DNA of 64,000 nt, from NCBI GenBank assembly GCA_038087875.1, contig CM075977.1:80600001-80664000 (forward strand). Reading direction: 5' to 3'. Shown piece after piece: positions 1-55,287 of this stretch. Source of the DNA: Malacoraja senta. Its lineage: Eukaryota. Made by a program: the position numbers and the translations under genes. The notes below the pieces were generated by a model, which saw only the letters and a list, made by a program, of their open reading frames with translations, was not told the DNA's origin and searched no databases. How positions within the stretch are numbered: position 1 is the stretch's first letter; each line of letters begins with the position of its first letter.

Positions 1-617
1 AGTATAGGAGCAGGGAGGTTCTACTGCAGTTGTACAGGGTCTTGGTGAGACCACACCTGGAGTATTGCGTACAGTTTTGGTCTCCAAATCTGAGGAAGGA
101 CATTATAGCCATAGAGGGAGCGCAGAGAAGGTTCACCAGACTGATTCCTGGGATGTCAGGACTTTCATATGAAGAAAGACTGGATAGACTTGGCTTATAC
201 TCGCTAGAATTTAGGAGATTGAGAGGGGATCTTATAGAAACGTACAAAATTCTTATGGGGTTGGACAGGCTAGATGCAGGAAGATTGTTCCCGATGTTGG
301 GGAAGTCCAGGACAAGGAGTCACAGCTTAAGGATAAGGGGGAAATCCTTTAAGACCGAGATGAGGAAAAACTTTTTCACACAGAGAGTGGTGAATCTCTG
401 GAACTCTCTGCCACAGAGGGTAGTTGACGCCAGTTCATTGGCTATATTTAAGAGGGAGTTAGATGTGGCCCTTGTGGCTAAAGGGATCAGGGGGTATGGA
501 GAGAAGGCAGGTACGGGATACTGAGTTGGATGATCAGCCATGATCATATTGAATGGCGGTGCAGGCTCGAAGGGCCGAATGGCCTACTCCTGCACCTATT
601 TTCTATGTATCTATGTA
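1..617 (+). mobile_element. CR1/HER1-type LINE, 3' end (RT C-terminus and tail)
   Basis: ORF 30-524 LVRPHLEYCVQFWSP...LRGDLIETYKI...FFTQRVVNLWNSLP is the CR1 ORF2 C-terminus; ends in ...GAATGGCCTACTCCTGC...TTCTATGTATCTATGT tail. Confidence 0.9.
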
Positions 618-720
618 ACACCTGTCCCTAAACCTCCTCCCTCGACTCTGTCCAGAGACCCCGACAGTCCCAAAGATCATAGAGCGGAGCAAGATAGTCC
701 ACTCCTCGAAAAAGCCGTAG

Positions 721-1273
721 TGAAAGAGCTAATAGTCAAATGTAATAGTCAAATCTAAAATGGAGTCGTTCTTCTACAAAAGCATGGACTAGGAGAACAA
801 AAGAATGACTTGGTGCCAAGTCTGAATGACTTCGTAAATTATACGGAACACAATATGGAGGACAGGTTGTCTTTTTAATAAAGAAATTAAGATGGAATCC
901 TGCAGTAATAACATGTGCTTCATTCAAGGCCATAAAGAAGCCGATTGAAAAAATAGCTGACGCTCCAGAGATAAGTAATAACTTGTTATTGGATGAGCTT
1001 GATTTGGACCTAGCTTTTCTTATATTCTGAAAGGCTACAGAATCTTTCAGTCATGCCATATTCAGACTTGGTAGGAGTGTTTTACTAATAAGAAAAATGT
1101 ATAATTGTGCTAACTTTCCTTTGTTCTGAGAGTGGAGCCCGAGAAGCACTGAGCAACGTTTGTGCTCATTGTAGATGTTTGCCGCTCCCGTCTGACGAAT
1201 CAATTAAAGATTGCCATGGTTTACCTTTAACAGTTTTTGTTGCTATCTGCTTTATAAGAAATGAACTTTGACA
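721..1273 (+). repeat. 5' LTR of ERV-like element
   Basis: TG...CA ends; highly similar to 16451-16993 with scattered substitutions and a few indels; ATTAAA near 1203. Confidence 0.92.
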
Positions 1274-1275
1274 TT

Positions 1276-1295
1276 TGGCTGTAGTCGGCAGGGAT
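1276..1295 (+). promoter_or_regulatory. Primer binding site, tRNA-Ser
   Basis: TGGCTGTAGTCGGCAGGGAT, 2 nt after the LTR; matches the complement of the vertebrate tRNA-Ser(AGA/TGA) 3' end, TGGCGTAGTCGGCAGGAT, with two 1-nt insertions. Confidence 0.8.
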
Positions 1296-2730
1296 CTCGC
1301 TGGGACCAGCAACTGATGACTGAGTAAGAGGGTGCATTTGACCGGGATCTGAAGGGGAGAAAGCTGAGCTCTAGTCGGACCTTTTGAGTCCGGTCTCCCG
1401 AAGAAGTTCCCGGTAAAAAACTAAGGTCCCTCAGTCTGAGGTTGGACAGGGTGTCTTGAAAAGAAGTGTATTGAAAAGATAATGTGTCTTGAAGTGACAG
1501 TGTTTTAAAGAGAGTGAGAGAGAGAGATTAGGGCTAAGGCAGAGAAAGAAAGCGCTGATAAGAGTTCGGAGAACAAAGCCGGTACCGGTAAGTCCCCTCG
1601 AGGTCCTCTCGAGAACCTATGTCAGGCAATGGCGATCCTGTCTATAGAAGGGGGAAGTGGCCAATCACAATCTGGATCACTGTCCATTCACAGCTCAGAC
1701 CACTCCCATTTTGAACATTAGCCCGCCCACCATTACATTAAACTACTCCCCGTGTTCATTTTAAATTCTCACTCCAACAGAAGATGACTTTTGCAAACCT
1801 TCCCAGTCCCAGTTCACAAAATCTGCCAGGGGAATTTCCTAGTTTGCTAATTCTGCAAATTGGTCCCGAGAAACAAAGATTCTTTTAAACAGAACGGATT
1901 TTGTCAGACAAGGGAGGGGAATGTAAAGTTAATACAGAGAGACGTCTCTAATGTTTTGCACAATTTTTTGGAAATGATGGGGGTTGCACCACTTTGGCTA
2001 ACTCCTCTCGGATAAATGTGTACCTGATGTATATTTTCCCTGTTTTTTGTACTATTTTGCCTGTTTTTTGTACTTGTTTTCTTTTAATGTTCGAAGGGAG
2101 GTATTTGTTCCAAACCCAAAGCTATTTCAAAAATACTCTAGGATGTTCTTTCAAGTTGTCACTCATCCAAGTTCTGGCTCTTATCAGATTAGCCAGATCT
2201 CCATGTTCTTTCGAGTTGTCACTCATCCAAGTTCTGTTTCTTATCTGATTAGAGTGCTAAGTGTTCTTTTCAAGGCTATGCTGCCAAAAAACTGGCAGCT
2301 CTATCCTACTGTGTTCAGGATTTTGCTATGTCTGTTTAATTTCTCTAAATTTCTTGACATCCAGTCCCAGGCTATATTTATATCTATATAACTAAAAGTC
2401 GCATCTTGACCACTTCCTGTCTGCACTGTATATTGATTTTAGAAAAAATCGCTACCCTATATCGCTATGATTTTTGGCCATCTTACTCACAGTCCACCCT
2501 CGAGGAATTTTCCGATCGATGTAAAACAAAAGTTGAGTGTTTAAAAAATCTTGAGATCAGCTGATTGGTCCTCTCGCCTGTCAATCACCATGATGAAGGT
2601 AACTCCCCTTCCGGGGGGAGGGCAGGACCTATAAAACCCCGGATGCCTGGACGTGAGTCAGTCACTCTGAAAGATCGCGAGGGAGAGGCCACAACTCTGA
2701 TTCTGCTGTGAGTCTACTGAACTGTGAGTC

Positions 2731-4240
2731 TAAGATTTGAGAAGTTTTCCCTCATGCTACAATCAACAAAACCAAAGATCTGCATTTTGGACATTTTTTA
2801 TATGGGACTGGGACTGAGAGAGAGAAAAGCTGCGGTCAGTTTTAACAAGGGATTGTGTTTCTTATTTTCTTTTTGTGCTTTTGTACTTGAATTCTGTCCT
2901 TGATTTGTGTACTGTGGTGTTTTTATATTTAATTTACTCCGATTATGTGTTTTGTATTTCTGTGATTCTATGCCTTGTAAGGTGTCCTTGGGTTTTAGAA
3001 AGGCGCTGGTAAATAAAATGAATTATTATTATTATTATAAGGGATGTCACAATCAGTGGGTCCCAAGATGGCCGCGGGACCTCGTGACCAGCCACAAAAG
3101 CGAAACCCCACAGCCCAGTCTCTGGGTTTCTGCAAAGTTACGGCCTGAACAATAGATGGATATTGGCCGTGCAGAAACCCCCGAAACCAGGTCGAAGTCC
3201 AGACACTGGGGCGCTGACATCAGCAGGCATCACAATGCCGCAAGCCGACCTACATAGTTAATCTCGTTAAGGGAGCACAATAGCCCATAGAAACCTACCT
3301 GGCCGGTGATGGGAAAACCAGTTAAACCCATTACCTCTTATCGAGAAACAAATTAACAGACCGTCTAGCCATCACCGGTACTCCCGGACATAACGCAGAA
3401 CAAAGAGAGAGCTCGAAACCCATCTTTTAAGCAAAGAGATCCCGAGATCTGACGGGAGATAGGATGGGTCAGGATTAGAATAACTGGCCACGATTTTTGG
3501 GTTTAAGAAGAAAAAGGAGGGAGACACACAGGAGTCACTGAACGAATCTGGAGACTTGCGGAGAGGACACAGGACAGCGCTTAAAAAGTACACGGTGTCT
3601 AGTGTGACACACACTCCGGCTGGAGTCCCTGCCACGTGGAAAGAAAAGGAAAGCAGTAGGACCCCTGGGCGAGGTGAACCCCCGGGACCACCCGAAAGAC
3701 CGAGACGACCCTTCCACAGCCACCTAATCGGAGGAAGCAGCACGACCAGCCAGTAACCTCAGTAATCGCCCCATGGTGAGCATGTACCCCGATCCTGCAC
3801 ATCCTGGACATAGTTTAGTGTAGAGGGGAGGGGGAGGGGGTTATATTAACGTGGGTGTAAGATGTGCTGGCAAATTTTACGATGTGCCGTACGTTCCCCA
3901 TCCCGCACTCGAGTATTGTATCGTAGTTTTTGCGTCTATGATCCCGAAACAGGAACTGTAATTATGCATATGCCTTATAGAAATGTGTCAAAGGATTCAT
4001 GTACCGTAGTCCCAACCGCTAAATAAAAGTTTTTTTCCTGTTTATCCCTGGTCTTCAAATCTGGTCTGGTTGAATTTTCTGCACTATCAACGCTCCTGCA
4101 ACTAAGTCCAGTGTCTAGAACCGTAGGGGGTGAGTGGGTCGAGCCACTCACGGGGAACCAGTGTGCGCGGCCTGGTCGAGGGACCAGAGCAAACCACAGG
4201 GACCTTAGGTCGGGCGAAAGCTCGACGCAGAAAACCCTTA
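2731..4240 (+). mobile_element. Solo-LTR-like insertion with TAAG...CTTA ends
   Basis: Interrupts a GTCTACTGAACTGTGA tandem array that resumes at 4241; AATAAA at 4022; three hairpins at 4130-4226. Confidence 0.45.
2854..3038 (+). mobile_element. 5'-truncated LINE 3' tail
   Basis: Ends AATAAAATGA(ATT)n; flanked by 7-bp TSD AAGGGAT (2847-2853 and 3039-3045). Confidence 0.75.
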
Positions 4241-4454
4241 GTCTACTGAACTGTGAGTCTACTGAGCTGTGAATCTACTGAACTGTGAGTCTACCCTTTA
4301 TGTGCTTTATGTGGTTATGTGCTTTATGTGGTTAACCCTTTATGTGCTTGCAACAAATTACTTGTTAGCCAGCAATGTGCTTGCAATGATTGATGATGTG
4401 TTAACCCTTAATGTGCTTGCAATAAATGATTTGTTAGCCCTAAATGAAATGAAA

Positions 4455-5052
4455 TGAAATGAGTTGTTTGGCCTGCCCTGTGCTTGAAATTGAAATGGAA
4501 ATGAAATGAGTTGTTTGGCCTGCCCTGTGCTTTTGCTTATCTTTGTTTTGCTTGAGCTCACCTGAAATGAAAGCAAATGGATTGTATTGTTGGCTGGCCC
4601 CGCCTGCCCTGTGCTTTGCCTTTGCTTTGCTTGAGCTCACCTGAAACAAAAGCAAATGGATTGTATTGTTGGCTGGCCCCTCCTGCCCTGTGCTTTTGTT
4701 TTTGCTTTGCCTTTGCTTTGCTTGAGCTCAACTGAAATGAAAGCAAATGGATTGTATTGTTGGCTGGCCAGGCCTGCCCTGTGCTTTTGCTTTGCCTTTG
4801 CTTTGCTTGACCTCACCTGAAATGAAAGCAAATGGATTGTATTGTTGGTTGGCCAGGCCTGCCCTGTGCTTTTGCTTTGCCTTTACTTGAACTCACCTGA
4901 AATGACAGCAAATGGATTGTATTGTTGGCTGGCCCCGCCTGCCCTGTGCTTTTGCTTTGCCTTTGCTTTGCTTGAGCTCACCTGAAATGAAAACAAATGA
5001 ATTGTATTGTTGGCTGGCCCTGCCTGCCCTGTGCTATTGCTTTTGCTTTGCC
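4455..5052. repeat. Minisatellite, ~80-90 bp unit, ~7 copies
   Basis: Repeated GCTTGAGCTCACCTGAAATGAAAGCAAATGGATTGTATTGTTGGCTGGCC...CCTGCCCTGTGCTTTTGC. Confidence 0.9.
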
Positions 5053-5085
5053 TGGGCTGGACTTGGGGAAACACCCCTACACCAA

Positions 5086-5136
5086 GACGTCCTGAATAAG
5101 GCTGACAACTGTCCTTACGTTTATAACACTGACCAA
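5086..5136 (+). pseudogene. THBS2: Thrombospondin (THBS2-like) type 3 repeat fragment, upstream piece
   Basis: [17 protein letters not shown] matches THBS2 [17 protein letters not shown]. Confidence 0.6.
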
Positions 5137-5137
5137 G

Positions 5138-5483
5138 ATGGATCCATTACCACAGGTTCTTGAAGTAACCAGAAAAAGATGCCAGCTTATCCCAGAGCTA
5201 CAAACCGAGCTGAAACAGATGAAAAATGTGCTCACCAATGCCCAGTCTGAAAATGCCCATCTCGTTTCCATCACACAGCAGCTGAAGGAGAGCAATCAGG
5301 TTGTGGAGTTGAAAAGCCTTGATTTTGGAGTGCAACTCAGTTACAGAACTGGATTGAGGTAAATCCCAGCCGGGATCAAAGTGAGGAGCTGAGTTGGGAT
5401 GGATAAGACAGCCAGTTGGCATTGATGTAGAAGGAGGAAGAATGCTGGTTTCACACGCTGATGGACAACTTGGGAGAAAGAAC
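5138..5483 (+). pseudogene. CRACR2A/CRACR2B/RAB44-family mRNA fragments (coiled coil and post-EF-hand segment)
   Basis: Coiled-coil [31 protein letters not shown], then EEECWFHTLMDNLG resembling CRACR2A DEEAQFRMLMDRLG; contains stops. Confidence 0.5.
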
Positions 5484-5495
5484 GACTCGATTTGT

Positions 5496-5910
5496 GAAAA
5501 GAAACTACATTTGTGATGAATGTGGACAGACTTTCAAACAACTGTCAGTTCAACAAATGCGCCGTACTGGAGCAAAACCTTTGCAGTGTGAAGTTTGTGG
5601 TTACCAGTGCAGGCAAAGAGCATCCTTGAAATACCATATGACCAAGCACAAGGTAGAAGCTGAACTTGAATTTGCTTGTGACCAATGTGAGAAGCGGTTC
5701 GAGAAGGCTCACAATTTGAATGTTCATATGTCCATGGTTCATCCCTTGTCCCAGAATACAGATGAAAGCAAACCTATTGAAATTGAATCGTCAGCTAAGT
5801 ATAGAAACATTAATTAAGCAGGAACCCAGTTAATAGTTATTCAACAGCTAAATGATGAGTCTAAGGAATCTTGCACCATTTTTCAGTGTCAGCAAGACAC
5901 AAAGGAATAA
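5496..5910 (+). pseudogene. ZNF276: ZNF276 processed fragment, zinc fingers 3-5 and C-terminus
   Basis: RNYICDECGQTFKQ...GAKPLQCEVCGYQCRQRASLKYHMTKH...FACDQCEKRFEKAHNLNVHMSMVHPL is near-identical to ZNF276; ZF3 has lost its His ligands; no introns. Confidence 0.9.
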
Positions 5911-6099
5911 CATGAACAAAAACGTAATCAAGTCAGGCTCACCTAAAATAGGTAGAGCAAAGGAAAGGTTAGTGTGGTAAACATAGTTATGAGCATTATA
6001 GCACACCAGTTCCCGAGACAAAGTCCAATGTCTGCAATGGGATAGAGGCGAATTAGTCAGAATCCTTGCAATTGGAAGGACTGCTCAGTACTCTGATAA

Positions 6100-6262
6100 C
6101 AGAGGGACACAGTTACATCCTGGACATGCATTCAAGTCGCAGCATTGTTTTGAATGAGGGACAGTGCCCATCCAGTAGAAATAAGGACTCAATGGAGGAA
6201 GTTCTGGATGGTTCAATAACCCTTTCACCTCGGAATGGAACAGTGACTCAAAATGGTGAGGA
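6100..6262 (+). pseudogene. ZNF276: ZNF276 processed fragment, middle region, left of gypsy insertion
   Basis: EGHSYILDMHSS resembles ZNF276 QGHDYTMDTSSS; rejoins 14681+ in frame (NGE|GDNVVK) when the gypsy element and one TSD are removed. Confidence 0.6.
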
Positions 6263-6548
6263 TGTAGCGCACCTGGTGGTGCCTTGTGGTAATCGAACCC
6301 TCGGTGTTCGCTGAGGGAGTCTCATGAGCGCAGGTGTTCTATTGGCTGTTTGTTTTTGCTGTAACTGCCAGTAACTGTCATTCTAGCACCACACTTGTGG
6401 AAATAACATTGTTTTTGTTGGCTGTCTTATCGACCAGAGTTTATTCATTGATTTACTGTTTCAAAATAAAACCCTTTGAATTCACTCACTGTCTCGATTC
6501 GCCAAACTGGTGACCCCGGCGCGTCCACTCATTTATTGGACGCCAAGA

Positions 6549-7186
6549 ATGCAAGCCGCCGCCATTCCTGACGCTCATCAGAATGCCGTTGGCCTCAAAC
6601 TACCCGTGTTCTGGGCCGAACAGCCACAGGTTTGGTTCGCCCACGTAGAAGCGCAATTCCATCTCCGCAACATCGTGGTAGACGACACCAAATACTTCCA
6701 TGTCGTCGGCGCGCTCACACAGGAGCCGGCGCTCGCTAAATACGAAGGCCTCAAAGCCCTCCTTCTCCGCACGTACGAGCTGAGCCACAGAGACCGCGCC
6801 GCCCGCTTCTTACACATGGACGGGTTGGGCGATCGCAAGCCATCCACGCTGATGGCTGAAATGCTCGCCCTGATGGACGGCCAACGCCCGTGTCTGCTCT
6901 TCGATGCCGATTTCATGCTCGCCGGTGCCGATTTCGCTGACCCCATACAGCTTGCCGAGAGGGCCGACGAACTCTGGCTAGCAAAACAGCAAGATGGCGG
7001 CTCCATCAACCGGGTCTCCGCGCCAGTCACCTCAGCAGGACCGTGGCGACGCCCCGCCCACTGCTTCCATCGCAGAGCCACAGCCACGCGACGGGGACCG
7101 GGGTAAGCGCAAATGGTGCTTCTAGAACCTCCGCTGGGGTGCTGAAGCTCGATGCTGCCGTCAACCCTGCTCATTTTAGGGAAATG
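6549..7186 (+). pseudogene. gypsy gag remnant
   Basis: NAVGLKLPVFWAEQPQVWFAHVEAQF...LGDRKPSTLM; WCF*NLRWGAEARCCRQPC (CHCC knuckle) in a shifted frame. Confidence 0.85.
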
Positions 7187-7554
7187 CAGGGCTCTCGCTT
7201 AACCTTTTTTCCCTGTTGCCAGCCGGGCAACCTCGGCAGCCTTTTAGGTTGCCAAATTACAGTTTAGGTGGTCATTTCAGACGGCTTGCATGACGCGTGC
7301 GATAATGTGCTCAGACGAAGTGCTTAGTTACCAGTCGGAATTATGGTCAACGAAGCATTCACATATTATTTCTGCTTCAAATGAAGTCACAAACTAAACA
7401 TATTCACCAATCAAGACATGATATATACCACAATGACATGCAGCAACATTACAATACAGTATCTCATCTCTTTTTACACGTTGCAATGAATGCAATTTCT
7501 ATTATCTCTTTCCACTTCCAAACAATAATATGGTTATTCAGCGTATGATGAATC

Positions 7555-8005
7555 TCGGTGAGACCAAGCGCAGGCTTGGCGATCGCTTCGCACAACACCT
7601 CCACTCAGATCGCAATAACCAGCCTGATCTCCCGGTGACTCAACACTTCAACTCCCCCTCCCATTCCGAATCCGACCTTTCTGTCCTGGGCCTCCTCCAT
7701 GGCCAGAGTGAGGCCCTCCGCAAATTGGAGGAACAGCACCTCATATTTTGCTTGGGTAGTTTACACCCCAGCGGTATGAACATTGGCTTCTCCAATTTCA
7801 GGTAGTCCTTGCTTTCTCCCTCCTTCCTCTCCCATTCCCAGCTCTCCCACAGTCTACTGTCTCCGCCTCTTCCTTTCTTTTTCCCGCCCCCCACCCCCCC
7901 CCGACATCAGTCTGAAGAAGGGTCTCGACCCAAAACGTCGCCTATTTCCTTCGCTCCATAGATGCTGCCTCACCTGCTGAGTTTCTCCAGCATTTTTGTC
8001 TACCC
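7555..8005 (+). mobile_element. Penelope-like element 3' fragment (GIY-YIG end and pLTR)
   Basis: GETKRRLGDRFAQHL...HFN...LEEQHLIF.LGSLHPSGMN; near-identical to 47195-47640. Confidence 0.85.
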
Positions 8006-8009
8006 TTTC

Positions 8010-8232
8010 ACACAAGTTCTGTTATCCCACTTACCTTACCCACTCCCTGCACATTAGGGGCAATTTTACAGAGACAAGTTAACCTACAAAGCCAATGCGT
8101 CTCTGGGATGTGGGCGGAAACCCCCATGCTTGCAGGGAGACTGTGTAAATTCAACACAGACAGTGCTCGAGAACAGGATCGAACACAGATCTCTGGCGTG
8201 TGAGGCAGCAAGTCCACCAGCTGTGCCACTAT
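8010..8232 (-). mobile_element. tRNA-derived SINE
   Basis: Minus strand GTGGCACAGCTGG...GTTCGATCC (A/B boxes), then a V-SINE-like body. Confidence 0.6.
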
Positions 8233-9671
8233 ATTTTATTTTCCAACACACAAAAAATTATACGTTGTGGTAAAAAAAAAAGAAACTATCCATTTTCAGT
8301 CTTAAATCTCTAAGTGATGCTATGTCCCCCTTTACAGCTACTGTATGTTTTAATTCACTTCAAGGCTATTGGGGCAGTACATTGGCCATAAATTTGCTGC
8401 CTAAAATTGCCAGAGACCCGTAATTGATCCTGAATATGGGTGTTGTCTGTATGGAGTTTTGTTTTCTCGTTTATAACATTGTTTACAGAGTACTATGTTT
8501 ACATATTCTGTTGTGCTGTTGCAAGTAAGGATTTCATTGTTCTAACTGGGATGTGAGAGAATAAAACACTCTTGACTTATGTCGCTGATGTGTGGGATAG
8601 AACTAGAGTATGGGTGATCGGTGGTCGGCGTGGACTCGGTGGGCCGAAGGGCCTGTTTCAACACTAAAACCAGAGGAAATGTAAAGAAAGGTTTCTACCT
8701 GAAACGTCAACCAATTCTTTCTATCCAGAGATGCTCGCTGCTCCATGGAGTTCCCCCGCACAATTAAAGCATGGAATAGTCTTCACCCTACCATAGGTAC
8801 CAACCAGGGCAACTAAAGTTAGGGTAGCTTTTTTTTCGCCCAAGAACCCTTTTTTGCTTAAGTCCAAGTCAAGAGAGTTTTATTGTCATGTGTCCCAGAT
8901 AGAGCAATGAAATTCTTGCTTGCTGCAGCACAACAGAATATGTAAACATAATACAGAACAGGAGATAAAAGTTCAGTGTGTCTATATACTATAGACTATA
9001 TATATACACAATAAATAAACAGATAAAAAGCAATAGGCTGTTATTTTTCAGAGTTTGGAGTTTGGTGGTGGTGGGTCCACCAGTTTAAATTCCATTTCGA
9101 ATATTTTTGGAGGACCAGGAAACCAAGAAGCAAGAATTACTCCAGGGAGTTACTCCAGCTTCAGGGAGTGATTCTGCGTTGTTTTTCAGCGGTCGCAGTG
9201 AGGCAGAGACCGGACAGCAATGGCGACCAGAACTCCCCCAATGCAAAGGGAGGGAGAAAGTGGCCGACGCCGACCAGTTGCCGTGGCAGTGCGCATGTGC
9301 AGGACCGCACATGCGCTCAACCTCGGCCGATGATGTGCTCGGCGGCCGGCTGTGCCGAGCTTAGACCCGAGAGCTAGCGCCGAGCGGAGAGCTAGCGCCG
9401 AGAGCCGAGCGTTGACCCGAGAGCCGAGAGCTAGCGCCGAGCGGAGAGCTAGCACCGAGAGTCGAGCGGAGAGCCCAGCGCCGAGCCGAGAGCTAGCGCC
9501 GAGAGCCGAGTGCTAGCGCCGAGCGCTGAGTGGAGAGCAAAATGGCATGGCCTTTAGGTTGCCTGGCGGGACTTTAAGTTGCCACTGGCACCCGGGCAAC
9601 CGCTAATTTCGAGCCCTGAAATGCCTCAGCCGATCGTCTGTAGAGGCGATCGCGATCGGCCCAAACAACCG

Positions 9672-11190
9672 CCTCTATGTCTGTGACCATCACTCGGGCA
9701 GGCGCTTCCTCGTCGACTACGGGGCTATCGTTAGCATCCTCCCGCCGACCAGACGTGACACCCGTGCTGGTAAGCAGGGCCCTGTGCTAATGGCCGTTAA
9801 TAGAAGTACCATTCACACTTATGGCACGCGGACCCTCTCGCTCTCCTTTGATTCCCGCCCATATGAGTGGACTTTCATAGTGGCCGATGTCGCTCAACCG
9901 CTCCTGGATGCCGACGTCCAGCGGGCTTTCTCCCTCCTAGGCGATGAGAGGGGCAGGCGAATGGTTCCGGCATCGGCCCTCGCCTCCACCCAGCCCACAG
10001 GTCAGCGCCGTCACGAGGTCGATGTCCCCTATGCCTCCCTCCTCACCGATTTCCCTGAGCTCCTCACTCCCGGTTTCAGCGCGGCAGCCCCCAAGCACGG
10101 GGTTTTCCATCACATCCCCACCGTGGGCCCTCTGGTACACACCCGGGCGCGCCGTCTTCCACCGGACAAGCTACACATCGCCCGGGAGGAGTTCCAGCTC
10201 ATGGAGGACATGGGGATCGTCCGGCGCTCGGACAGCCCGTGGGCATCACCGCTAAAAATGGTCCCCAAATCATCTGGGGGGTGGAGACCATGTGGGAACT
10301 ATCAGCGTCTGAACGCCATGACAACTGCGGACCACTACCCAGTGCCCCACATCCAGGATTTTTTTTTGCCCACCTCTTCTCTAAAGTCGACCTTGTCCGT
10401 GCCTATAATCAGATTCCAGTTCACTCGGACGACGTTCCCAAGACCACGATAACCCCGTTCAGGTTGTTCGAATGGCTGCGTATGCCCTTTGGATTAAACA
10501 ACGCCGCACAGGCGTTCCAAAGGCGTATGGACAGGGTCGGGAGGGGTCTGCTGTTCGTATTCATTTACCTCGATGACATCCTTGTCGCAAGCCCCACCCA
10601 GGATGAGCACATCGTGCACCTGCGGACTCTCTTCCAGCACCTCGACTACGGCCTCATAATCAACCCCGCCAAGCGCCATTTCGGCCTCCGTTCCATCTCC
10701 TTTCTGGGGCACAGCGTCACACCTCAAGGCGCCGCCCATCTACCCTCGAAGGTGGAGGCCATTCAGCAGTTTCCCTGGCAGCGCACGGTAAAGTGGTTGC
10801 AGGAATTTGTCGGCATGGTGAATTTTTACCACCGCTTCGTGCCGGTAGCTGCCAACATCATGCAAACCCTTTTTCCAGAGCCTCGCAGGCAAGCTCGAAT
10901 GGTCCTCTGAGGCGGACGTGGCGTTCGAGGGTGCCAAGGCAGCCCTGGCCAACGCAACCATGTTGGTCCACCTCAGCCCCAATGGCCCTCACTGTGGACG
11001 CCTCGTACTCGGCTGTGGGCGGCGTCCTGGAGCAGGTCATCGATGGCCGCTGACCTTTTTGCAGCCGTCCCGTACGAGCTCCCGAGCGCAACTACAGCGC
11101 CTTTGACAGAGAGCTCCTGGCGTTGTACCTGGCCATCAGGCACTTCCACTACTTTCTCGAAGGTCGCATTTTCACTGCCTTCACTGACCA
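9672..11190 (+). pseudogene. gypsy pol remnant (protease, RT, RNase H)
   Basis: [15 protein letters not shown]; [12 protein letters not shown]; MPFGLNNAAQAFQR; YLDDILVAS; TVDAS..AVGGVLEQ; multiple frameshifts. Confidence 0.88.
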
Positions 11191-12916
11191 AGAGTTCAAG
11201 AGTTTTATTGTCATGTGTCCCTGATACGACAATGAAATTCTTGCTCTGCTTTAGCACACCAGAACATACGAATACTGAACACACGAATACTGAACAGATC
11301 AGTGTGTCCATATACCATTGCATAAATATATACACACATGAATAATTAAACTGATAAAGTGCAAATAAACAGATTATTGGCTATTAATGTTCAGAGTTTT
11401 GTCCGAGCCGAGTTTAATAGCCTGATGGCTGTGGGGAAGTAGCTGTTCCTGAACCTGGTCGTTGCAGTCTTCAGGCTCCTGTACCTTCTACCTGAAGGTA
11501 GTGGGGAGATGAGTGTATGGCCCGGATGGTGTGGGTCCTTGATGATGCTGCCAGCCTTTTTGAGGCAGCGACTGTGATAGATCCCCTCGATGGACGGGAG
11601 GTCAGAGCCGATGATGGACTGGGCAGTGTTTACCACTTTTTGTAGTCTTTTCCGCTCCAGGGCGCTCAAGTTTCCGAACCAAGCCACGATGCAACCTGTC
11701 AGCATGCTCTCCACTGTGCGCCTGTAGAAGTTAGAGAGAGTCCTCCTTGACCTACCAATTCTCCGTAATCTTCTCAGGAAGTAGAGGCGCTGATGTGCTT
11801 TCTTTGATTGCATCAGTGTTCTCGGACCAGGAGAGATCTTCAGAGATGTTCACGCCCAGGAATTTGAAGCTCTTGACCCTTTCCACCATCGACCCGTTGA
11901 TATAAACGGGACTGTGGGTCCCCATCCTATCCCTTCCAAAGTGCACAATCAGTTCCTTGGTTTTGCTGGTGTTGAGGGCCAGGTTATTGTGCTGGCACCA
12001 TTTGGTCAGTCGCTAGATCTCACTTCTGTACTCTGTCTCGTCCCCATCAGTGATACGTCCCACAACAGTGGTATCGTCAGCGAACTTGATGATGGAGTTT
12101 GCACTATGACCGGCCAAGCAGTCATGAGTATAGAGTGAGTACAGCAGGGGGCTAAGCACGCAGCCTTGAGGTGCTCCCGTGCTGATCGTTATTGAGGCTG
12201 ACACATTTCCACCAATACGAACTGACTGTGGTCTGTGAATGAGGAAGTCGAGGATCCAATTGCAGAGGGATGGGCAGAGACCCAGTTCTGCGAGTTTGGT
12301 AACCAGCTTGGAGGAGATGATTGTATTAAATGCCGAGCTGTAATCAATGAATAATAGCCTGACATATAAGTTTTTGTTGTCCAAGTGGTCCAGAGCGGAG
12401 TGGAGAGCCAGCGAGGTCGCATCCACCGTTGATCTGTTGTGGCGGTAAGCGAACTGCAGAGGGTCCAGGTTTTTGTCGAGGTAGGAGTTGATTTGCGCCA
12501 TGATCAACCTCACAAAGCACTTCATCACCACAGACGTTAGTGCCACTGGTCGATAGTCATTGAGGCACGTCACCTTGCTCTTCTTGGGCACCGGTATAAT
12601 TGATGCCCTTTTAAAAGCAGGTGGGAACCACAGACCGCAGAAGTGAGAGGTTGAAAATGTCCGTAAAAACTCCAGCCAGTTGGTCCGCACAGGTTTTTAG
12701 AACACGCCGGGTATACCATCAGGTCTAGGCGCTTTTCGAGGGTTCACCCCTCTGAAGGATTTTCAGACGTCGGTCTCTGTGACTGTGACTGAAATACCAT
12801 CACAGCGAATGGGGGCTCCAGAAGGCACATCAGTGTTCTCCCTATCAAAGCGTGTGTAAAACGCATTGAGCTCGTCAGGGAGTGATGTTTCGCCGACATT
12901 CGAGCTGCCGACATTC
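11191..12916 (-). mobile_element. Rex1/Babar non-LTR retrotransposon, 5'-truncated
   Basis: VPKK...[17 protein letters not shown]...LDPLQFAYR...[11 protein letters not shown]...[10 protein letters not shown]...KFADD; splits the gypsy TDHKPL motif with duplication GACCA (11186-11190 and 12917-12921). Confidence 0.88.
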
Positions 12917-14200
12917 GACCACAAACCCCTCACCTTTGCCCTGGGTAAGGTCTCCGACTCGTGGTCCGCCCGCCAGCAGCGACACCTCGCTTACATCTCA
13001 GAGTTCACCACGGACGTTCAGCACGTCGCGGGCAAGCTCAACACCGTTGCTGACGCTCTGTCGTGCCCCGCCCTTCCCTCCATCTCAGCCGTAGACCACT
13101 GCATGGACTACGAAGAGCTGGCTGCGGCACAGCGTGCGGACGCTGTGATGGCGGACTACCGCACAGCTGTTTCTGGCCTCGTTGGCCGATGTCCCGTGTG
13201 GAGCCTCGGGCACGATGGTCCTCTGCGATGTCTCCACGGGTCGACGTCGCCCCATCGTCCCCATATGTTAGCGTCACCGGATTTTTCACTCCATTCACGA
13301 TCTGGCCCACCCGTCCATACGGGCGACCTCCGCGCTGGTGGCGGACAAATTTGTTTGGCACGGTCTCCGCAAGCAGGTGGCGGCCTGGGCCCGAGCCTGC
13401 CTTCCTTGACATCCCCACGGGCCGTTTCCTGCATATTCATGTTGACCTGGTGGACCCGTTGCCGACATCCCGCGGCGCCACCCATTTACTCACCGTCGTG
13501 GACCGCTTCACGAGGTGGCCGGAGGCTATCCCGCTCTCGGACACCTCCGCCGCGTCTTGCACTCGGGCCCTGCCGGCCAACTGGATTGCCCGGTTCGGGG
13601 TCCCGTCGGATATCTCCACCGACCGGGGGCCCAATTCACTTCTGCTTTGTGGATTTCCCTCGCTCAGCTCTACGGGGCGCGGTTACATCATACCACCCAC
13701 AGGCCAACAGGCTCGTTGAGCGCTTTCATCGCCACCTCAAGTCGGTGTTGAAGGCTCGACTCACAGGTCCGGACTGGGTGGACCAGTTGTCGTGGGTGCT
13801 GCTCAGGATCCGCACCGCCCCCAAGGAGGTGCTAGCCGCTTCCTCCGCCGAGCTTGTGTACGGCTCGGCCCTGCGGGTGCCTGGGGACTTTCTCCCTGCC
13901 GTCCGAGGGCGGGTGGACTCTGCCCCGGAGTTGCTGGCGACCCTCCGGGAGCGGGCTAGCTCCAGTTCCCACTTCGCGGCAGTTTGCCGGCGGTGCACGT
14001 GCCGTCGGCTCTGCAGCATTGTACCTTTGTTTTCGTTCGCTGGGACGCTCACAGATCCCCCTTGCAGCGAGTCTACGAGGGGCCGTTCCCTGTGTTGCGG
14101 TCTGGTGTCGCCACCTTCACCTTGGACGTGGGGGGCCGGGAGATCGTCTCCGTCGATCGGCTCAAGCCTGCCCATGTCAACGGTGGTCGCGCAGCCCCGA
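12917..14200 (+). pseudogene. gypsy pol remnant (RNase H end, integrase, GPY/F)
   Basis: DHKPLTFAL...RQQRHLAYISEF; HIHVDLVDPLP...VVDRFTRWPEAIPL; ISTDRG; YHPQAN.LVERFHR.LK; YEGPFPV. Confidence 0.88.
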
Positions 14201-14680
14201 CGTAGAGGTCGTCCGCCGGCCGATCCAGCCGCACCGGTTGTGCCTGTTTCCCCCGACCCGGTTATACCTGTTCCTTCCGCCCCGTTACGGTCTCCTGGTC
14301 CTGTTCGGCCAGTCCCTCTTGTTACTCCCGCTCCCTTACGGTCTCCTGGCCCTGTTCGGCCTGTCCCTCTTGTTACGCCCGCCCTGCCTCCGCTGACCAC
14401 ACGTTCTGGTCGCTATGTCCGGGTCCCTACTAGGTTCCGTACCTCGGGTTCTGGGGGGGGTCCTGTAGCAGTACCTGGTGGTGCCTTGTGGTAATCTAAC
14501 CCTAGGGGTTGGCTGAGGGAGTCTCATGAGCGTGGGTGTTCTATTGGCAGTTTGTTTTTGCTGTATCTGTCAGTAACTGTCATTCTAGCGCCACACTTGT
14601 GGAAGTAACATCGTTTTTGTTGGCTGTTTTAGTTTCAAAATAAAACCCTTTGAATTCACTCACTGTCTCGACTCGCCAAA

Positions 14681-15349
14681 AGGGTGATAATGTTGTGAAG
14701 CATCAACCTGTCCCAGTGTTAGCAGACTTTCAGCCTTGTACATGCAGTAGAGCCACTTCGCGGTCGGTGGATGTGGACAACTGGGAATCCCCATTGAAGG
14801 ATATGTTCTTGTGCTCAGATCCTGAATATACAGAGTGCTCTTGGGAAAAAGTTCAGGTACAAGATGCAACTCAACCATTAAATGTGAAAAAAAAAGTTAA
14901 CTGCAATGAAGCATCTTGTTCTATAAGAAATGATGTTGTGGATGGATTGGAGTCCAGTGATCTTTCTGAAAGGTATTTATCAAGTGAAGATGACAGAGAA
15001 ATAAAAGTTAAGAATGGCTCTTCAGATGAGTCTTTTCAACCATATTGGAAGAAGAGTAAGTTACCAGTTAAGAAGTGCAATATTAAAGATGTGAAGAAAC
15101 AATCTGGACAAAAACGTGGCCGGAAACCAAAGTCTAACTTGGAAAGGAAAGATTTTCCCTCCGTGTATCGATGTCAGTATAAGGGTTGCTGTGCTGTTTA
15201 CAGAGGAATTGGCGGACTTAAGAAACATATAAAAGAGCAGCATGAAGAGGAGCGTGAAAGGCCTTGCCCCACCCAGGAGGTAACAAGGTGTTTGTGATTG
15301 ATCGCTACCTGCAGCGCCATGTAAAGCTGATCCATACAGAAGAAAGAAC
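14681..15349 (+). pseudogene. ZNF276: ZNF276 processed fragment, acidic region to zinc fingers 1-2
   Basis: SDLSE..LSSED...SSDESFQPY; YRCQYKGCCAVYRG..GLKKHIKEQHEE.RERPCP; after a 1-nt shift HPGGNKVFVIDRYLQRHVKLIHTE; intronless. Confidence 0.88.
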
Positions 15350-15514
15350 ATCTTTACAGATCAGGAGGAGGTGCAAAGCCTTTGGTCACAACTTCGAAAG
15401 ACAAACCACATTTGATCACCAATCTTGAAGCATTTTGAGCTCTATCGTATGACCAAGGGTCTAGAAAGAGAGAAGCTGAACATTTTGAAACAGCGGGACC
15501 TCTTGAAAGAGATT
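15341..15514 (+). pseudogene. CRACR2A/RAB44-family mRNA fragments, downstream pieces
   Basis: NIFTDQEEVQSLWSQLRK/DKPHLITNLEAF resembles CRACR2A [48 protein letters not shown] resembles [25 protein letters not shown]. Confidence 0.6.
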
Positions 15515-16242
15515 ATCCACAACCCTATCCAGGAAGACAATGACTCAGACCTGGTGGGTAATCAGTGTGATGACAATTAGGACATTGATGACGATGGCAA
15601 TTATGGTGTTTCTGATGAGGACAATTGCTGTTTTGTTCCCAACCCTGACCATATCGATGCCGATGGTGACAGCAGAGGAGACACCTGCAAGGACTTTGAC
15701 AACAACATTCCAGATATCTATGACGTGTGCCCCGAGAACAGCGCCATCAGTGAGACTGACCTGACGACGTTCCAAAGGGGACGATGCAGATCGTTCCTAA
15801 CTGGGTAGTGCGCAACAAGGGCAGGGAGTTACTGCAGACGGCCAACTCTGACCCTGGCCTTGCTGTCGGATTTGAGGAGTTCAATGCCATCAACGTCAGT
15901 GGTACCTTCTACGTCAACACAGACCACAATCTACGGTGGCTTTGTCTTTGGCTTCCAGTCCAGCAGCCGCTTCTACGTGGTGATGTGCAAGCAGGCCACC
16001 CAAACCTACTGGGAAGAGAAGCTGTCCAAACCCACGGATACGCTAGCGTCTAGCTCAACCCCACCACGGGCTGAGAGGGGGGGAACACCTGTGCAACGAT
16101 CTACGACGAGACTGGCAACACCCTCGGACAGGTGCAAACTTTATGGCACAACCCCAATATCGGCTGAAAGGATTACACTGCCTACAGGTGGCACCTGATC
16201 GATTGACCCTAAACAAGCTTCAACAGGATCGTTGTCAATGAA
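15515..16242 (+). pseudogene. THBS2: Thrombospondin (THBS2-like) processed fragment, type 3 repeats and C-terminal domain
   Basis: DLVGNQCD...[13 protein letters not shown]...[25 protein letters not shown]...[16 protein letters not shown]...QTYWE...[18 protein letters not shown]; intronless, with stops and deletions. Confidence 0.85.
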
Positions 16243-16250
16243 GAGAGTGA

Positions 16251-16410
16251 GAACTGGTTGCCGTACCATTGGTTTGATGGACTTTGGGGTACTATTGAAC
16301 TGGTAGCCATACCTTTGGTTTGGTGGACTTTGGGGTACTGTAATACATTATGGCTCTATCATTCTGCTAATCATTGCTCTAATATTTGTGACCATTGTGT
16401 GTACCCACCG
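16251..16410 (+). pseudogene. Retroviral env transmembrane anchor remnant
   Basis: Frame from 16316 reads WFGGLWGTVIHYGSIILLIIALIFVTIVC, just upstream of the PPT; preceded by a ~46-nt tandem duplication. Confidence 0.5.
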
Positions 16411-16450
16411 AGGACTGTGAATGTTATCATGTTTGATAAAAAGGAGGGAA

Positions 16451-16993
16451 TGAAAGAGCTAATAGTCAAATCTAATAGTCAAATCTAAAATGGAGTCGTT
16501 CTTCTACAAAAGCATGGACTAGGAGAAAAGAATGGCTCGGTGCTAAGTCTGAATGACTTTGTAAATTATATGGAACACAATATGGAGGACAGGTTGTCTT
16601 TTTAATAAAGAAATTAAGATGGAATCATGCAGTAATAACATGTGCTTCATTCAAGGCCATAAAGAAGCCAAGATTGAAAAAAATAGCTGACGCTCCAGAG
16701 GTAAGTAATAACTTGTTATTGGATGAGCTTGATTTGGACCCAGCTTTTCTTATATTCTGAAAGGCTGCAGAATCTTTCAGTCATACCATATTCAGACTTG
16801 GTAGGAGTGTTTTACTAATAAGAAAAATGTATAATTGTGCTAACTTTCCTTTGTTCTGAGAGTGGAGCCCGAGAAGCACTGAGCAACGTTTGTGCCACTC
16901 CCATCTGACGAATCAATTAAAGATTGCCATGGTCTTTAACATACCTTTAACAGTTTTTGTTGCTATCTGCTTTATAAGAAACAAACTTTGACA
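16451..16993 (+). repeat. 3' LTR of ERV-like element
   Basis: Preceded by PPT AAAAAGGAGGGAA; TGAAAG...TTTGACA; followed by TSD GTAG. Confidence 0.92.
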
Positions 16994-17109
16994 GTAGTAG
17001 GTCATGGGTAATCTTCAGCGCCATTTCCGTAACCGGCTTCCGTCTCCGCTCCAATCTATGATCTTTGGTCATGGCGTCTATGATCTTTGATCTTTGGAGT
17101 GGACTATCT

Positions 17110-18107
17110 TGCAGTTCTATCACTGGCCGTGCGCAACTTTGGCGCCATTGAGAGGAGGGCGGGTTTAAAATGCCGTTTTCTCCAGCCTGTTGAAATCGAT
17201 CTTTGTCAGGCTGTTTAGTTGCTGAAGAATAATCGCTCCGACATCCGTTTTATCAAGTTGTTTTAAAACTGCGCTGGATAATTTAATAGGAGTAAATTAA
17301 AAATCATCTTCTAAAGCCGTCAACGGGACGGATCTCACGAAACGGGACAAAGCAAGGTACGCCGTTTATTTTTACATATAAACGTGCTTCTTAGGATGCC
17401 TTTAATCAAAATTTCACATTGCGAAAAGGTGACTTAGGCCCCATATGAACCGGCAGTATTTTTCCTGCCGATATGGGGTTTAAATTCACTGCAAGTGCAA
17501 CGTTCCAAACGATCGCGTTCCACAAAAACCCACTCGCAAGATGATTAAAATGGCCATTAATTTACAGGAATTAAACACTAAATTCTTTCCATTTGGCCTA
17601 TAAATTCATGACAATGAGATTTAAAAATCATGTTATATTGTGAATTCTTGTGTGAATGTTATTTGGACACTTAGGCTATTTAAAAATGTTAATCTTTTCT
17701 TAAGAAATGGATAGATGTTTAGATCTAGTAATTGAATTTTGTAATTAGCTACAATTAGGTAGCTAACTAATTATATGCTTTAATTTCAGGTCATCCAAGT
17801 AAGATTGTTTCATATTTGTTTCAGAATGCTTCAATCTATAATAACTGAAAATTTCTTTGTTCTCTTAATTTTTAAGAAAGTCCTTAAAGGCTTTTGACTG
17901 TCCTCGATCACAGCTTTTGTGTTAAGTCAATGGAAAAGCAATAGGGAACAAGATGCTAATTTCCGAGTATGAAAATGGCCATAACTTTTTTAATACTGAA
18001 GATATGAAAGTGAATTATGTGTCAAATTAAACTTCTTTTTATGCTTTATCTGATGGGATAAATTGCAGACTTGATTTTTTTTATCTCAAAATTTTGTAAC
18101 ATTGCTA
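17110..18107 (+). mobile_element. ~1-kb non-autonomous DNA element, left end lost
   Basis: Colinear and similar to 18247-19280; ends TTTTGTAACATTGCTA. Confidence 0.7.
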
Positions 18108-18246
18108 CGCTCAGTCCGCCTGAACCAACCCGATCTCCCGGTTGCGTCAGACGCAATGTGTCCAGTGGACACATTAATTTTCTCCCACTTCAGGTAGCCC
18201 TGGCATTCCCTCTCTCTCTATTCCTCCCCCACCCAAGTGGCACTAG

Positions 18247-19280
18247 TAGGTATGTTACAAAACTTACCTTCAGTCGCACTGTAATTCTGCCACTGGCCGT
18301 GTGTGCGATTTTGGCACCTTTAAGGGGGGGGCGGGGTTAAAACACGGGTTTCTCCTCCCTTGTCCTGGTTAATATTTCGTTGGAGTACAAGCGTTGGCTG
18401 AACAATCGTTCCTAGTGGCCTTTTTTGTTTTTTTTATTTTTATTAAATCGTCAATGTCAGCGCTAGAGTAATTTTAAAAGCAGCTCCTGAAGCGTCAATG
18501 CTGATAACGGGGACGGATTTCACACACGGGACAGGTAAACGAGTGGTTTCTTTAAATGTATAAAAGTGCTTCTTAAGAAGCCTTTAATTCACATTTTTTC
18601 ATGCGACACGGTGATTTTATTCCCCGAACGGCAGTATTTTTGATGCCAATACGGGGTTAAATTCACCGCAAATCAACTTTCCAAAAGATCGCGTTCCAGA
18701 AATCCTCACTCACAAGATGATTTAAATGCCAATTAATTTACAGGTATTAAACATTCAATTCCTTCCATTTGGCCTGTAAATTCATGAAAATTAGATTTAA
18801 AAATTATGTTATATTGTGAATTATTGTGTGAATGTTATTTGGACACTTAGGCTATTTAAAAATGTTCATCTATTCTTAAGAAATTGATAGATGTTTAGAT
18901 CTAGTAATTGAATTTTGTAATTACCTACAATTGGGTAACTAACTAATTATATGCTTTACTTTCATGTCTTCTAAGTAAGATTGTTTCATATTTGTTTCAG
19001 AATGCTTCAATCTATAATAACTGAAAATGTCTTTGTTCTCTTAATTTTTAAGAAAGTTATGGGCTTTTGACTGTCCTCGATCACAGCTTTTGTGTTAAGT
19101 CAATGGAAAAGCAATAGGGAACAAGATGCTAATTTCCGAGTATGAAAATGGCCATAACCTCTTTAATACTGAAGATATGAAAGTGAATTAGGTGTCAAAT
19201 TAAACTTATTTTTATGCTTTATCTGATGGGATAAATTGCAGACTTTATTTTTTAAATCTCAAAATTTTGTAACATTGCTA
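18247..19280 (+). mobile_element. ~1-kb non-autonomous TIR element
   Basis: TAGGTATGTTACAAAA...TTTTGTAACATTGCTA inverted ends; flanks GCACTAG/GCACCAG; inserted in a Penelope fragment (18110-19480). Confidence 0.75.
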
Positions 19281-54765: not shown

Positions 54766-55287
54766 TTTGTTGAAGTTCCTGAAACATTTTAATGTGATTA
54801 TTCTCATCCTTGTAAATGCTGGGGAAAATAGTGTTAGGCAAGTTGTGTAGGAAGGAACTGCAGATACCGGTTTAAACAGAAGATGTCACAAAAAGCTGGA
54901 GTAACTCAGCGGGACAGGCAACATCTCTGGAGAGAAGGAACGGGTGCCAGAAACTGGTCTGAAGAAGGGTCCATCGTTAGTCAAGCTGTTGTCTCTTCTT
55001 AGAATTATCTGCCATCCTAAGAATTAATGCCAATGAGTATTTATTGCATTTATGCAGTGGTGCAGCTAGTATAGCTACTTCGTCACAGCTCCAGCAAACT
55101 TGTTTCAATTCTAATGTCTGCTGCTGTACATCTTGAGTTGGCACGTTCTCCGTGTAACTGGATTTTGTTTGTGTTCACTAATTTCTGTCTACATCTATAG
55201 ATGTATTTGTATCAACAAATATATATATATTATCCATCTGGCAATTTAACTCGTATATTTTTCCTAAAAAAAAATTTTCTTCCACAG

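What the first reader, a model, noticed from the sequence alone, without database searches (positions are those of the whole stretch)
5475..15349. ZNF276 retrocopy is circularly permuted and bounded by an AGAAAGAAC repeat
Seen: ZF3-5 plus C-terminus (5496-5910) lie upstream of the middle region plus ZF1-2 (6100-6262 and 14681-15349). The break falls in the HTEER|NYIC linker. AGAAAGAAC occurs at 5475-5483 and 15341-15349, and the CRACR2-like sequence is continuous across these points (LMDNLG..|NIFTDQEEV). A 12-nt filler sits at 5484-5495. Inference: this is the geometry expected if a circular ZNF276-containing molecule (circRNA cDNA or DNA circle) crossed into the CRACR2-like cargo at a shared microhomology, or if microhomology-guided RT template switching permuted the block.
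Basis: partly seen in the sequence, partly recalled or inferred. Interest (0 to 1): 0.78.

Follow-up and report, generated by a model that had tools for sequence, protein, structure and literature searches.

The report
Permuted gene copy inside skate retroelement
A skate retroelement carries nested scraps of four host messenger RNAs, and one of them (ZNF276) is really in tail-before-head order, most likely because reverse transcriptase jumped backwards on one linear RNA rather than because it copied a circular RNA.

Summary
ZNF276 residues 518-631, stop and 3'UTR (5498-6106) precede residues 242-518 (6102-6262, 14681-15348); both parts are 92-96% identical to one skate protein and intronless. 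The 8.4 kb gap is a later Gypsy insertion. The block sits without loss inside a CRACR2-like piece, inside a thrombospondin piece, inside a non-autonomous LTR element (721-16993) whose junctions recur in sister contigs. Corrections: the 9-mer is composite (shared core probably AAAGAA); the filler matches the antisense of the element's own LTR (15/16) plus an 8-nt repeat of the ZNF276 entry site; the closing join is at 6100-6106, from a 3'UTR repeat into the middle of an exon, so it is no annotated back-splice; the CRACR2-like cargo is permuted too. Best reading (0.55): serial reverse-transcriptase switches on one linear mRNA, where RNase H leaves a 3' fragment ending at the entry site, which forces exit = entry just as a circle would. 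A circular RNA is not excluded (0.15). Parent mRNA letters at the joins were not obtained. A new variant of LTR-mediated retroposition that mimics circRNA-derived pseudogenes.

The parts
717..720 (.). Left target-site duplication GTAG of the outer element
   Evidence: identical GTAG at 16994-16997
721..1273 (+). 5' LTR of outer non-autonomous LTR element (TG...CA)
   Evidence: 91.8% to 16451-16993 with gaps; 16 substitutions in 533 columns, K2P 0.031
1276..1293 (+). Primer-binding-site-like motif starting TGG; tRNA-Ser type is recalled, not tested
   Evidence: sequence directly
4518..5058 (+). 85-bp tandem array (6.4 copies) just before the cargo
5089..5136 (+). Thrombospondin (THBS1/2-like) cargo, left part, aa 811-826 of P0124
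   Evidence: 12/16 identical, E 4.5e-11 in a slice search; repeats in this protein give weaker alternative placements
5141..5164 (+). Possible CRACR2-like aa 450-457 (weak)
   Evidence: 6/8 identical, E 0.67
5164..5316 (+). BICD-family (BICD2-like) mRNA piece with an internal deletion near 5194
   Evidence: Pfam BicD E 1.3e-8; relative P0127 hits PDB 6PSE BICD2; RNA contigs have loose ends at 5164 and 5316
5329..5364 (+). CRACR2-like aa 460-471, placed upstream of aa 110: second out-of-order piece
   Evidence: 11/12 identical, slice E 4.4e-8
5357..5483 (+). CRACR2-like (EFCAB4B-like) aa about 109-150, left of the ZNF276 block
   Evidence: parent-like RNA contig matches 5357-5476
5475..5483 (+). 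AGAAAGAAC copy 1 (composite; core AAAGAA at 5477)
5484..5497 (+). 14-nt filler: 5478-5493 matches the antisense of the element's LTR (773-758, 16503-16488) at 15/16; 5490-5497 repeats ZNF276 5509-5516 exactly
5498..5833 (+). ZNF276 aa 518-631 (fingers 3-5, C-terminus) and stop; 9-nt deletion near 5535 and frameshift near 5790
5834..6106 (+). ZNF276 3'UTR-like sequence; its distal part (about 5983-6105) is a fragment of a very high-copy repeat
   Evidence: RNA contig 5804-6032 (X15 record 23); depth 1.5-2.0e5 at 5983-6064 in X1; extra depth lasts to about 6098-6108
6100..6106 (+). Closing join (3'UTR repeat to mid-exon aa 241/242), candidate overlap CAGAGGG
   Evidence: parent letters not obtained
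6102..6262 (+). ZNF276 aa 242-294
   Evidence: 51/53 identical to P0002
6263..14680 (+). Gypsy-type LTR retrotransposon (LTRs 6263-6513 and 14464-14680; RT, integrase and DUF7041 remnants; LINE and SINE pieces inside) splitting ZNF276 between aa 294 and 295
14681..15348 (+). ZNF276 aa 295-518 (middle, fingers 1-2), running 9 nt past the HT|E exon border
15341..15349 (+). AGAAAGAAC copy 2: clean ZNF276 / CRACR2-like join over AAAGAA (15343-15348)
15343..15511 (+). CRACR2-like aa 149-179, then (internal deletion) aa 328-352
15512..16242 (+). Thrombospondin cargo, right part, aa 843-1132 of P0124 with several short deletions
16250..16436 (+). Short remnant with a hydrophobic stretch (16307-16417) and a 46-nt tandem duplication; likeness to a retroviral envelope anchor is recalled and was not confirmed
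   Evidence: no useful Pfam or Atlas hit
16438..16450 (+). Polypurine tract
   Evidence: sequence directly
16451..16993 (+). 3' LTR of the outer element, followed by GTAG

Best explanation
During minus-strand synthesis in the particle of an LTR element that already carried the CRACR2-like piece, reverse transcriptase left its template at AAAGAA and entered one co-packaged linear ZNF276 mRNA at the same 6-mer. RNase H cut that mRNA just behind the enzyme, leaving a 3' fragment whose 5' end lies at the entry site. After 827 nt (at aa 242) the enzyme jumped, over a short G/A-rich overlap, to the 3'UTR of the leftover fragment, copied 609 nt, and ran off the fragment's end at the entry site. Stalled, it re-copied 8 or more nt of the entry sequence and about 10 nt of its own nascent LTR strand (the filler); its 3' end then matched the AAAGAA site it had first left, so the CRACR2-like template resumed within 0-1 nt. 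The chimera was later copied as a non-autonomous family, and a Gypsy element inserted into this copy's lineage. Shown: order, nesting, intron loss, filler matches, shared junctions in sister contigs. Inferred: single molecule, RNase H cut, order of jumps, exact overlaps.
For: Permutation and lossless return. Entry join clean, exit join carries a filler, as run-off predicts; filler matches antisense LTR (2 of 2000 shuffles reach it against the LTR, 7 of 400 against the whole outer element, 0 of 190 other cargo tiles) and repeats the entry sequence (89 of 20000 shuffles). Closing join is mid-exon and in a 3'UTR repeat: no isoform border at aa 241/242 among 120 ZNF276 proteins, 96 of which keep WGCxxGH contiguous; repeat-family depth runs to about 6098-6108, overlapping the start of the exon match at 6102, and no GT or GC follows any of positions 6095-6106 in the window. 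A second backward jump exists in the CRACR2-like cargo (aa 471 to about aa 109), and BICD, CRACR2-like and thrombospondin pieces carry internal deletions, so this lineage has a record of mid-exon RT jumps. RNase H degradation and switching at template breaks are textbook (PMC3187697, passages); multi-gene capture with about 6-nt microsimilarity and occasional inserted letters is described in PMC5131818 (passages).
Against: The parents' letters beyond the joins were not seen, so neither the overlap at 6100-6106 nor the absence of a splice donor in the parent 3'UTR is shown. My attempt to name the repeat as a LINE 3' end from in-window relatives was not significant (114, 59 and 160 of 500 shuffles did as well). 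A circle opened by RNase H gives the same entry/exit geometry. AAAGAA is the only such site in the block, so homology alone could tie both ends even with two mRNA molecules. No stem brings the two sides of the closing join together (z -0.96). One CRACR2-like letter at the exit join is missing and may be a later change. In Tan et al. cargo replaced template sequence, whereas here nothing is lost. The depth estimate of where the repeat ends rests on summed contig depths, and one of six settings gave 6089-6095.
Confidence: 0.55

Rival explanations
1. The template was a circular ZNF276 RNA of about 1.43 kb, closed by a cryptic back-splice (3'UTR donor to a CAG or GAG acceptor inside the exon) or another ligation; RT entered at AAAGAA, went once round and returned.
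For: Unit-length permuted block with entry = exit and no poly(A). AG dinucleotides lie at 6101-6102 and 6103-6104 and could be acceptors. Precedent: circRFWD2 pseudogenes beside ERV LTR sequence in mouse (PMC4897178).
Against: Neither end is an annotated exon border; the circle would include the last exon and 3'UTR; the repeat family seems to match through the join without GT; a second mid-exon back-jump in CRACR2-like cargo would need a second odd circle. No ZNF276 circle surfaced in a two-term search (3 listings seen, none by title on this).
Confidence: 0.15
2. Stepwise history: the two ZNF276 parts were captured from two mRNA molecules or in two replication rounds, or a normal-order copy was duplicated in tandem and trimmed, with AAAGAA used twice because it is the only match to the CRACR2-like site.
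For: AAAGAA occurs at one parental site only in the block; the cargo shows many deletions and the family has sub-lineages (some contigs keep the 9 nt at 5535 or the 2 nt at 5789).
Against: No normal-order or partial sister was seen among the 32 listed pieces (5343 more were not shown); both parts are equally diverged (11/288 vs 2/117, p 0.36; 8/173 vs 3/117, p 0.53); the two parts abut within 6 nt with no longer overlap or gap; the filler is unexplained by clean homologous switches.
Confidence: 0.2
3. A ZNF276 cDNA closed on itself by end joining at 6100-6106 and the DNA circle entered the CRACR2-like cargo by one crossover at AAAGAA.
For: One crossover gives exactly a permuted insert between two copies of the shared 6-mer with no loss of target.
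Against: One crossover predicts two clean joins; one join has a 14-nt templated filler. The insert is in the same sense as all other cargo and the LTRs (a one-in-two chance). Six nt is short for a crossover (established knowledge). A genomic circle is excluded by intron loss.
Confidence: 0.1

Closest known systems
LTR-mediated retroposition (Tan et al. 2016, PMC5131818; mouse 'Super' retrocopy; maize Bs1 and HERV-K FAM8A1 as cited there)
   Same: Partial intronless mRNAs between two LTRs, several parent genes, short overlaps at joins, occasional inserted letters, no poly(A), further amplification as a non-autonomous element.
   Different: There the cargo replaced part of the element and no continuous template was merely interrupted; here ZNF276 interrupts the CRACR2-like piece without loss, is permuted, and cargo is nested. 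'permut', 'circular', 'reversed' occur in none of 9 supplement files searched and 'circular' not in the main text; the figure of 'Super' and supplement file 1 were not seen.
circRNA-derived pseudogenes (Dong et al. 2016, PMC4897178; circRFWD2 with MMERVK10C-int)
   Same: Non-colinear order, no poly(A), LTR context, multi-copy.
   Different: Those are defined by an exon-exon back-splice junction of a detected circRNA; here the join is mid-exon to 3'UTR repeat. That paper itself notes non-colinear copies from non-circular RNA (vault RNA).
Retroviral forced/dynamic copy choice, deletions with insertions (review PMC3187697)
   Same: Switch at template breaks, RNase H removal of copied RNA, deletions, duplications and inserted letters.
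   Different: Described for two copies of a viral RNA; a backward jump on a single captured mRNA giving a closed permutation was not in the passages seen.

Membership tests
LTR-mediated retrocopy (Tan 2016) | Cargo between two LTRs of one element with a site duplication | tested here: met
   LTRs 721-1273 and 16451-16993, GTAG both sides
LTR-mediated retrocopy (Tan 2016) | Partial, intronless mRNA sequence | tested here: met
   five isoform-inferred ZNF276 exon borders crossed without intron
LTR-mediated retrocopy (Tan 2016) | Microsimilarity between the parents at switch points | tested here: inconclusive
   AAAGAA inferred from proteins and both window copies; parent DNA not obtained
LTR-mediated retrocopy (Tan 2016) | No poly(A) tail | tested here: met
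   no A-run of 6 or more and no AATAAA/ATTAAA in 5834-6106
LTR-mediated retrocopy (Tan 2016) | Further copying as a non-autonomous element | tested here: met
   contigs of two DNA runs bridge the joins; two sister proteins span the filler; copy number not measured
LTR-mediated retrocopy (Tan 2016) | Co-transcription with the LTR | tested here: inconclusive
   one contig of a run only guessed to be RNA crosses the filler, with 21 nt on its short side
circRNA-derived pseudogene (Dong 2016) | Non-colinear order of parent sequence | tested here: met
circRNA-derived pseudogene (Dong 2016) | Junction joins the end of one exon to the start of an earlier exon | tested here: not met
   join is 3'UTR repeat to aa 241/242; no isoform border there among 120 proteins; exon borders are inferred from isoforms, not from the skate gene's DNA
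circRNA-derived pseudogene (Dong 2016) | Matching circRNA detected in RNA | not testable with these tools
   only contigs were laid; no run on record as RNA
circRNA-derived pseudogene (Dong 2016) | Cryptic splice signals at the join in the parent | tested here: inconclusive
   AG candidates present; no GT/GC in window letters; parent letters not seen
Endogenous retrovirus (outer element) | LTRs, primer site, polypurine tract, short site duplication | tested here: met
Endogenous retrovirus (outer element) | gag, pol or env homology that places it among retroviruses rather than Gypsy elements | tested here: inconclusive
   no Pfam or Atlas support for the hydrophobic remnant; only 1 of 37 leader ORFs was scanned, with no hit

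The most novel reading that the evidence does not exclude
The block is the complete trace of a circular ZNF276 RNA being copied inside an LTR particle: entry by microhomology, one lap, run-off at the nick and return. It would supply the missing mechanism for circRNA retrotransposition (called mysterious in PMC4897178), in a cartilaginous fish, through a circle made from a cryptic 3'UTR site, and then spread as a family; the permuted CRACR2-like cargo would be a second captured circle.
Probability: 0.15. Interest if true: 0.75.

Novelty: new variant of a known kind. Interest (0 to 1): 0.47.

Why it matters
If the best reading is right, LTR reverse transcriptase can circularly permute a captured gene from an ordinary linear mRNA, and RNase H makes the ends meet exactly. 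That is a route to domain-order shuffling, and a caution: a non-colinear retrocopy with matched ends beside LTRs is not proof of a circular RNA. Two such back-jumps in one cargo and a multi-copy family make the idea testable by comparing sister copies. No host function is indicated; this copy is broken in every piece.

Tried and rejected
No whole genome was held, so parent genes and sister loci could not be read directly. No run held half of the query's words and none is on record as RNA: 'no RNA holder listed'; this says nothing on expression. Hunting for other copies of the 3'UTR repeat failed: 4 of 4 metagenome hits were unrelated sequence; none in viral contigs, prokaryote genomes (69, 72) or plasmids (71); no ZNF276 or LINE relative in viral contigs (73, 74). 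My note that the repeat is an antisense LINE end is a recalled likeness; alignment to three in-window LINE ends was not above shuffles, so I do not rely on it. No stable fold across the closing join. No Rfam family in 600-17100, no tRNA gene in the window. Atlas gave nothing usable for the envelope-like remnant or the large host exon. Rejected: paralogue mix or different ages; genomic DNA circle (introns absent); assembly artefact (joins recur in contigs of other runs and in P0122/P0123); untemplated filler; break at an exon border (9 nt off). Earlier scan notes: three look-ups returned nothing. Nine paper searches listed no description of this skate element or of a permuted LTR cargo by title or abstract start; the library lacks most subscription papers.


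Full report
Setting. The window is from a skate: the ORF at 14683-15294 is 92% identical to ZNF276 of Leucoraja erinacea and Amblyraja radiata and 82% to Rhinoraja. The finding lies inside an LTR element at 721-16993: LTRs that start TG and end CA, 91.8% alike with gaps (16 substitutions in 533 columns), GTAG on both sides, a primer-site-like motif at 1276 and a purine tract at 16438-16450. No gene of its own was recognised, so I call it a non-autonomous LTR element; retrovirus ancestry is a recalled likeness of a hydrophobic remnant at 16307-16417, not confirmed.

The observation. tblastn with skate ZNF276 gives aa 518-631 at 5498-5830 with the stop at 5831-5833, aa 242-294 at 6102-6260, and aa 295-518 at 14683-15347. 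The order is therefore 518-631, 3'UTR, 242-518. The 8.4 kb between aa 294 and 295 is a Gypsy-type element with LTRs, RT and integrase remnants and a site duplication AGGA/AGGG. The four segments match P0002 at 89/96, 51/53, 182/196 and 23/25, and differences to RNA-like contigs do not differ between parts (p 0.36 and 0.53): one gene, one age class. Isoform comparison among 120 fetched proteins puts exon borders at about aa 183, 287, 340, 365, 516 and 550 (the aa 516 border comes from mammalian isoforms); five are crossed without intron, so the source was spliced RNA. The CRACR2-like relative P0121 matches aa 110-147 left of the block and aa 149-165 right of it.

The cargo is nested: thrombospondin aa 811-826 and 843-1132 outside; CRACR2-like inside it; a BICD piece (Pfam E 1.3e-8; BICD2) and the ZNF276 block inside that; Gypsy innermost. 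All pieces are sense to the LTRs. The CRACR2-like cargo is also out of order: aa 460-471 (11/12 identical) precedes aa 110, and aa 180-327 are missing. The structure is no assembly error and not unique to this copy: contigs of two DNA runs bridge the filler join with 31 or more letters on both sides (X1 5423-5540; X12 5372-5531), the closing join (X12 5926-6193) and the CRACR2-like back-join (X1 5329-5482; X12 5195-5445 and 5207-5400) (32 pieces listed, 5343 not shown), and two unnamed proteins span the filler. Many overlapping contigs and summed depths of 370-2500 against 7-36 for most listed single contigs suggest a multi-copy family; the tool warns that this is no copy number.

The three joins. 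(a) Right join, 15341-15349: clean, 9 nt past the HT|E border at 15339, over AAAGAA, which occurs at only one parental site in the block. The 9-mer is composite: Ala148 in P0121 puts a C between the G and the core, and a parent-like contig stops matching at 5476. This is inference from a relative's protein, not parent DNA. (b) Left join, 5484-5497: the filler has two templated sources. 5478-5493 matches the antisense of the element's own LTR at 15/16 (2 of 2000 shuffles against the LTR, 7 of 400 against the outer element, 0 of 190 other cargo tiles). 5490-5497 repeats ZNF276 5509-5516 exactly (89 of 20000 shuffles). Together they cover all 14 letters with one mismatch. The two sources overlap in sequence, the tests were chosen after seeing the match, and the sister proteins (R or T at one filler codon) do not tell which letter is older. 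(c) Closing join, 6100-6106: the 3' side starts at aa 242, mid-exon; the 5' side is a very high-copy repeat about 270 nt past the stop. From depth arithmetic the repeat family matches to about 6098-6108 in five of six settings (6089-6095 in one), so it probably overlaps the exon start, and no GT or GC follows any of 6095-6106 in the window. AG candidates for an acceptor exist at 6101-6102 and 6103-6104. I could not see the parent letters: the loose ends there were not printed, and seven searches for the repeat elsewhere found nothing useful. My guess that the repeat is a LINE end was not supported above shuffles.

Mechanism. Minus-strand synthesis runs right to left in this view. RT leaves the CRACR2-like template at AAAGAA and enters ZNF276 mRNA. 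RNase H degrades RNA in the hybrid (PMC3187697, passages), so the uncopied 3' part of that mRNA is left with its 5' end at the entry site (inference). A later jump to the same molecule can only land 3' of the entry site, so it yields a permutation, not a duplication. Copying that fragment ends at the entry site; the stalled enzyme stutters and briefly primes on its own nascent LTR strand, which would appear as antisense LTR in the product; and its 3' end is by construction the entry microhomology, so it returns to the site it left. One cause thus explains exit = entry, the lossless return and the one-sided filler. A circle nicked by RNase H does the same, so only the closing join separates the two. 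What could be tested there (no exon border, terminal 3'UTR repeat, likely overlap, a second mid-exon back-jump in the same cargo) favours an RT jump. I give 0.55 to one linear mRNA, 0.2 to a stepwise history, 0.15 to a circular RNA and 0.1 to a cDNA circle.

Known kinds. It works like LTR-mediated retroposition (PMC5131818: passages of the main text, section 7, and a term search of 9 supplement files; file 1 and figures not seen) and meets the features that could be tested, but differs in being a lossless, permuted, nested insert. It looks like a circRNA-derived pseudogene (PMC4897178: part 1 of 2 of the text and supplement passages) but fails the defining exon-exon junction on isoform-inferred borders, so it is not filed there. 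Nine searches (listings only, apart from the three papers named) showed no report of this element or of permuted LTR cargo; the order of pieces in the mouse 'Super' retrocopy, which I could not see, may bear on novelty.

Verdict. Real and neatly diagnosable; a new variant of a known process in a broken, amplified retroelement cargo. Interest 0.47. The circular-RNA reading stays open at 0.15 and would merit 0.75; two short reads of the host ZNF276 gene would decide it.

Noticed in passing
window 6263-6513 / 14464-14680 vs 721-1273 / 16451-16993: The inner Gypsy LTRs differ more (15/216, K2P 0.073) than the outer LTRs (16/533, 0.031; Fisher p 0.024) although nested inside. Either the Gypsy copy travelled inside an older progenitor, or outer LTRs were homogenised, or CpG decay inflates it. 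Unexplained.
   Followed up: partly
window 5425-5814; proteins P0122, P0123: Two unnamed sister proteins (133 aa) are an open in-frame fusion of a CRACR2-like stretch, the filler and ZNF276 fingers 3-5; they differ at one filler residue (R in P0122 and the window, T in P0123). The window copy has a stop at the start. No evidence of function.
   Followed up: partly
window 5141-5364: The BICD piece may itself sit inside CRACR2-like aa 450-471, with TTGAA on both sides (5160-5164, 5309-5313): possibly a second insertion with return to the same place. The left assignment is weak (E 0.67).
   Followed up: partly
window 5040-6262, runs: About a third of the stretch's words occur in runs of at least six coded organisms (A-E and G, also F), which suggests the family or its parents are shared across several skate species; only 4 of 23 runs were laid.
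   Followed up: partly
window 5983-6105: A very high-copy repeat fragment lies in the ZNF276 3'UTR-like part; an RNA-like contig and one low-depth DNA contig of the same organism share a 2-nt deletion at 5921, which fits the parent gene carrying it.
   Followed up: partly
window 1274-5058: The 3.8 kb leader holds AT-rich and other inserted-looking pieces, a 16-bp and an 85-bp tandem array, and no recognised coding remnant; not dissected.
   Followed up: no
window 17290-19280: An 830-bp direct repeat (87%) right after the element's 3' end.
   Followed up: no
window about 31500-56200: Large exons of a host gene (50475-51746, 55201-56184); likeness to CEP192 is recalled, with no Pfam or Atlas support.
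   Followed up: no
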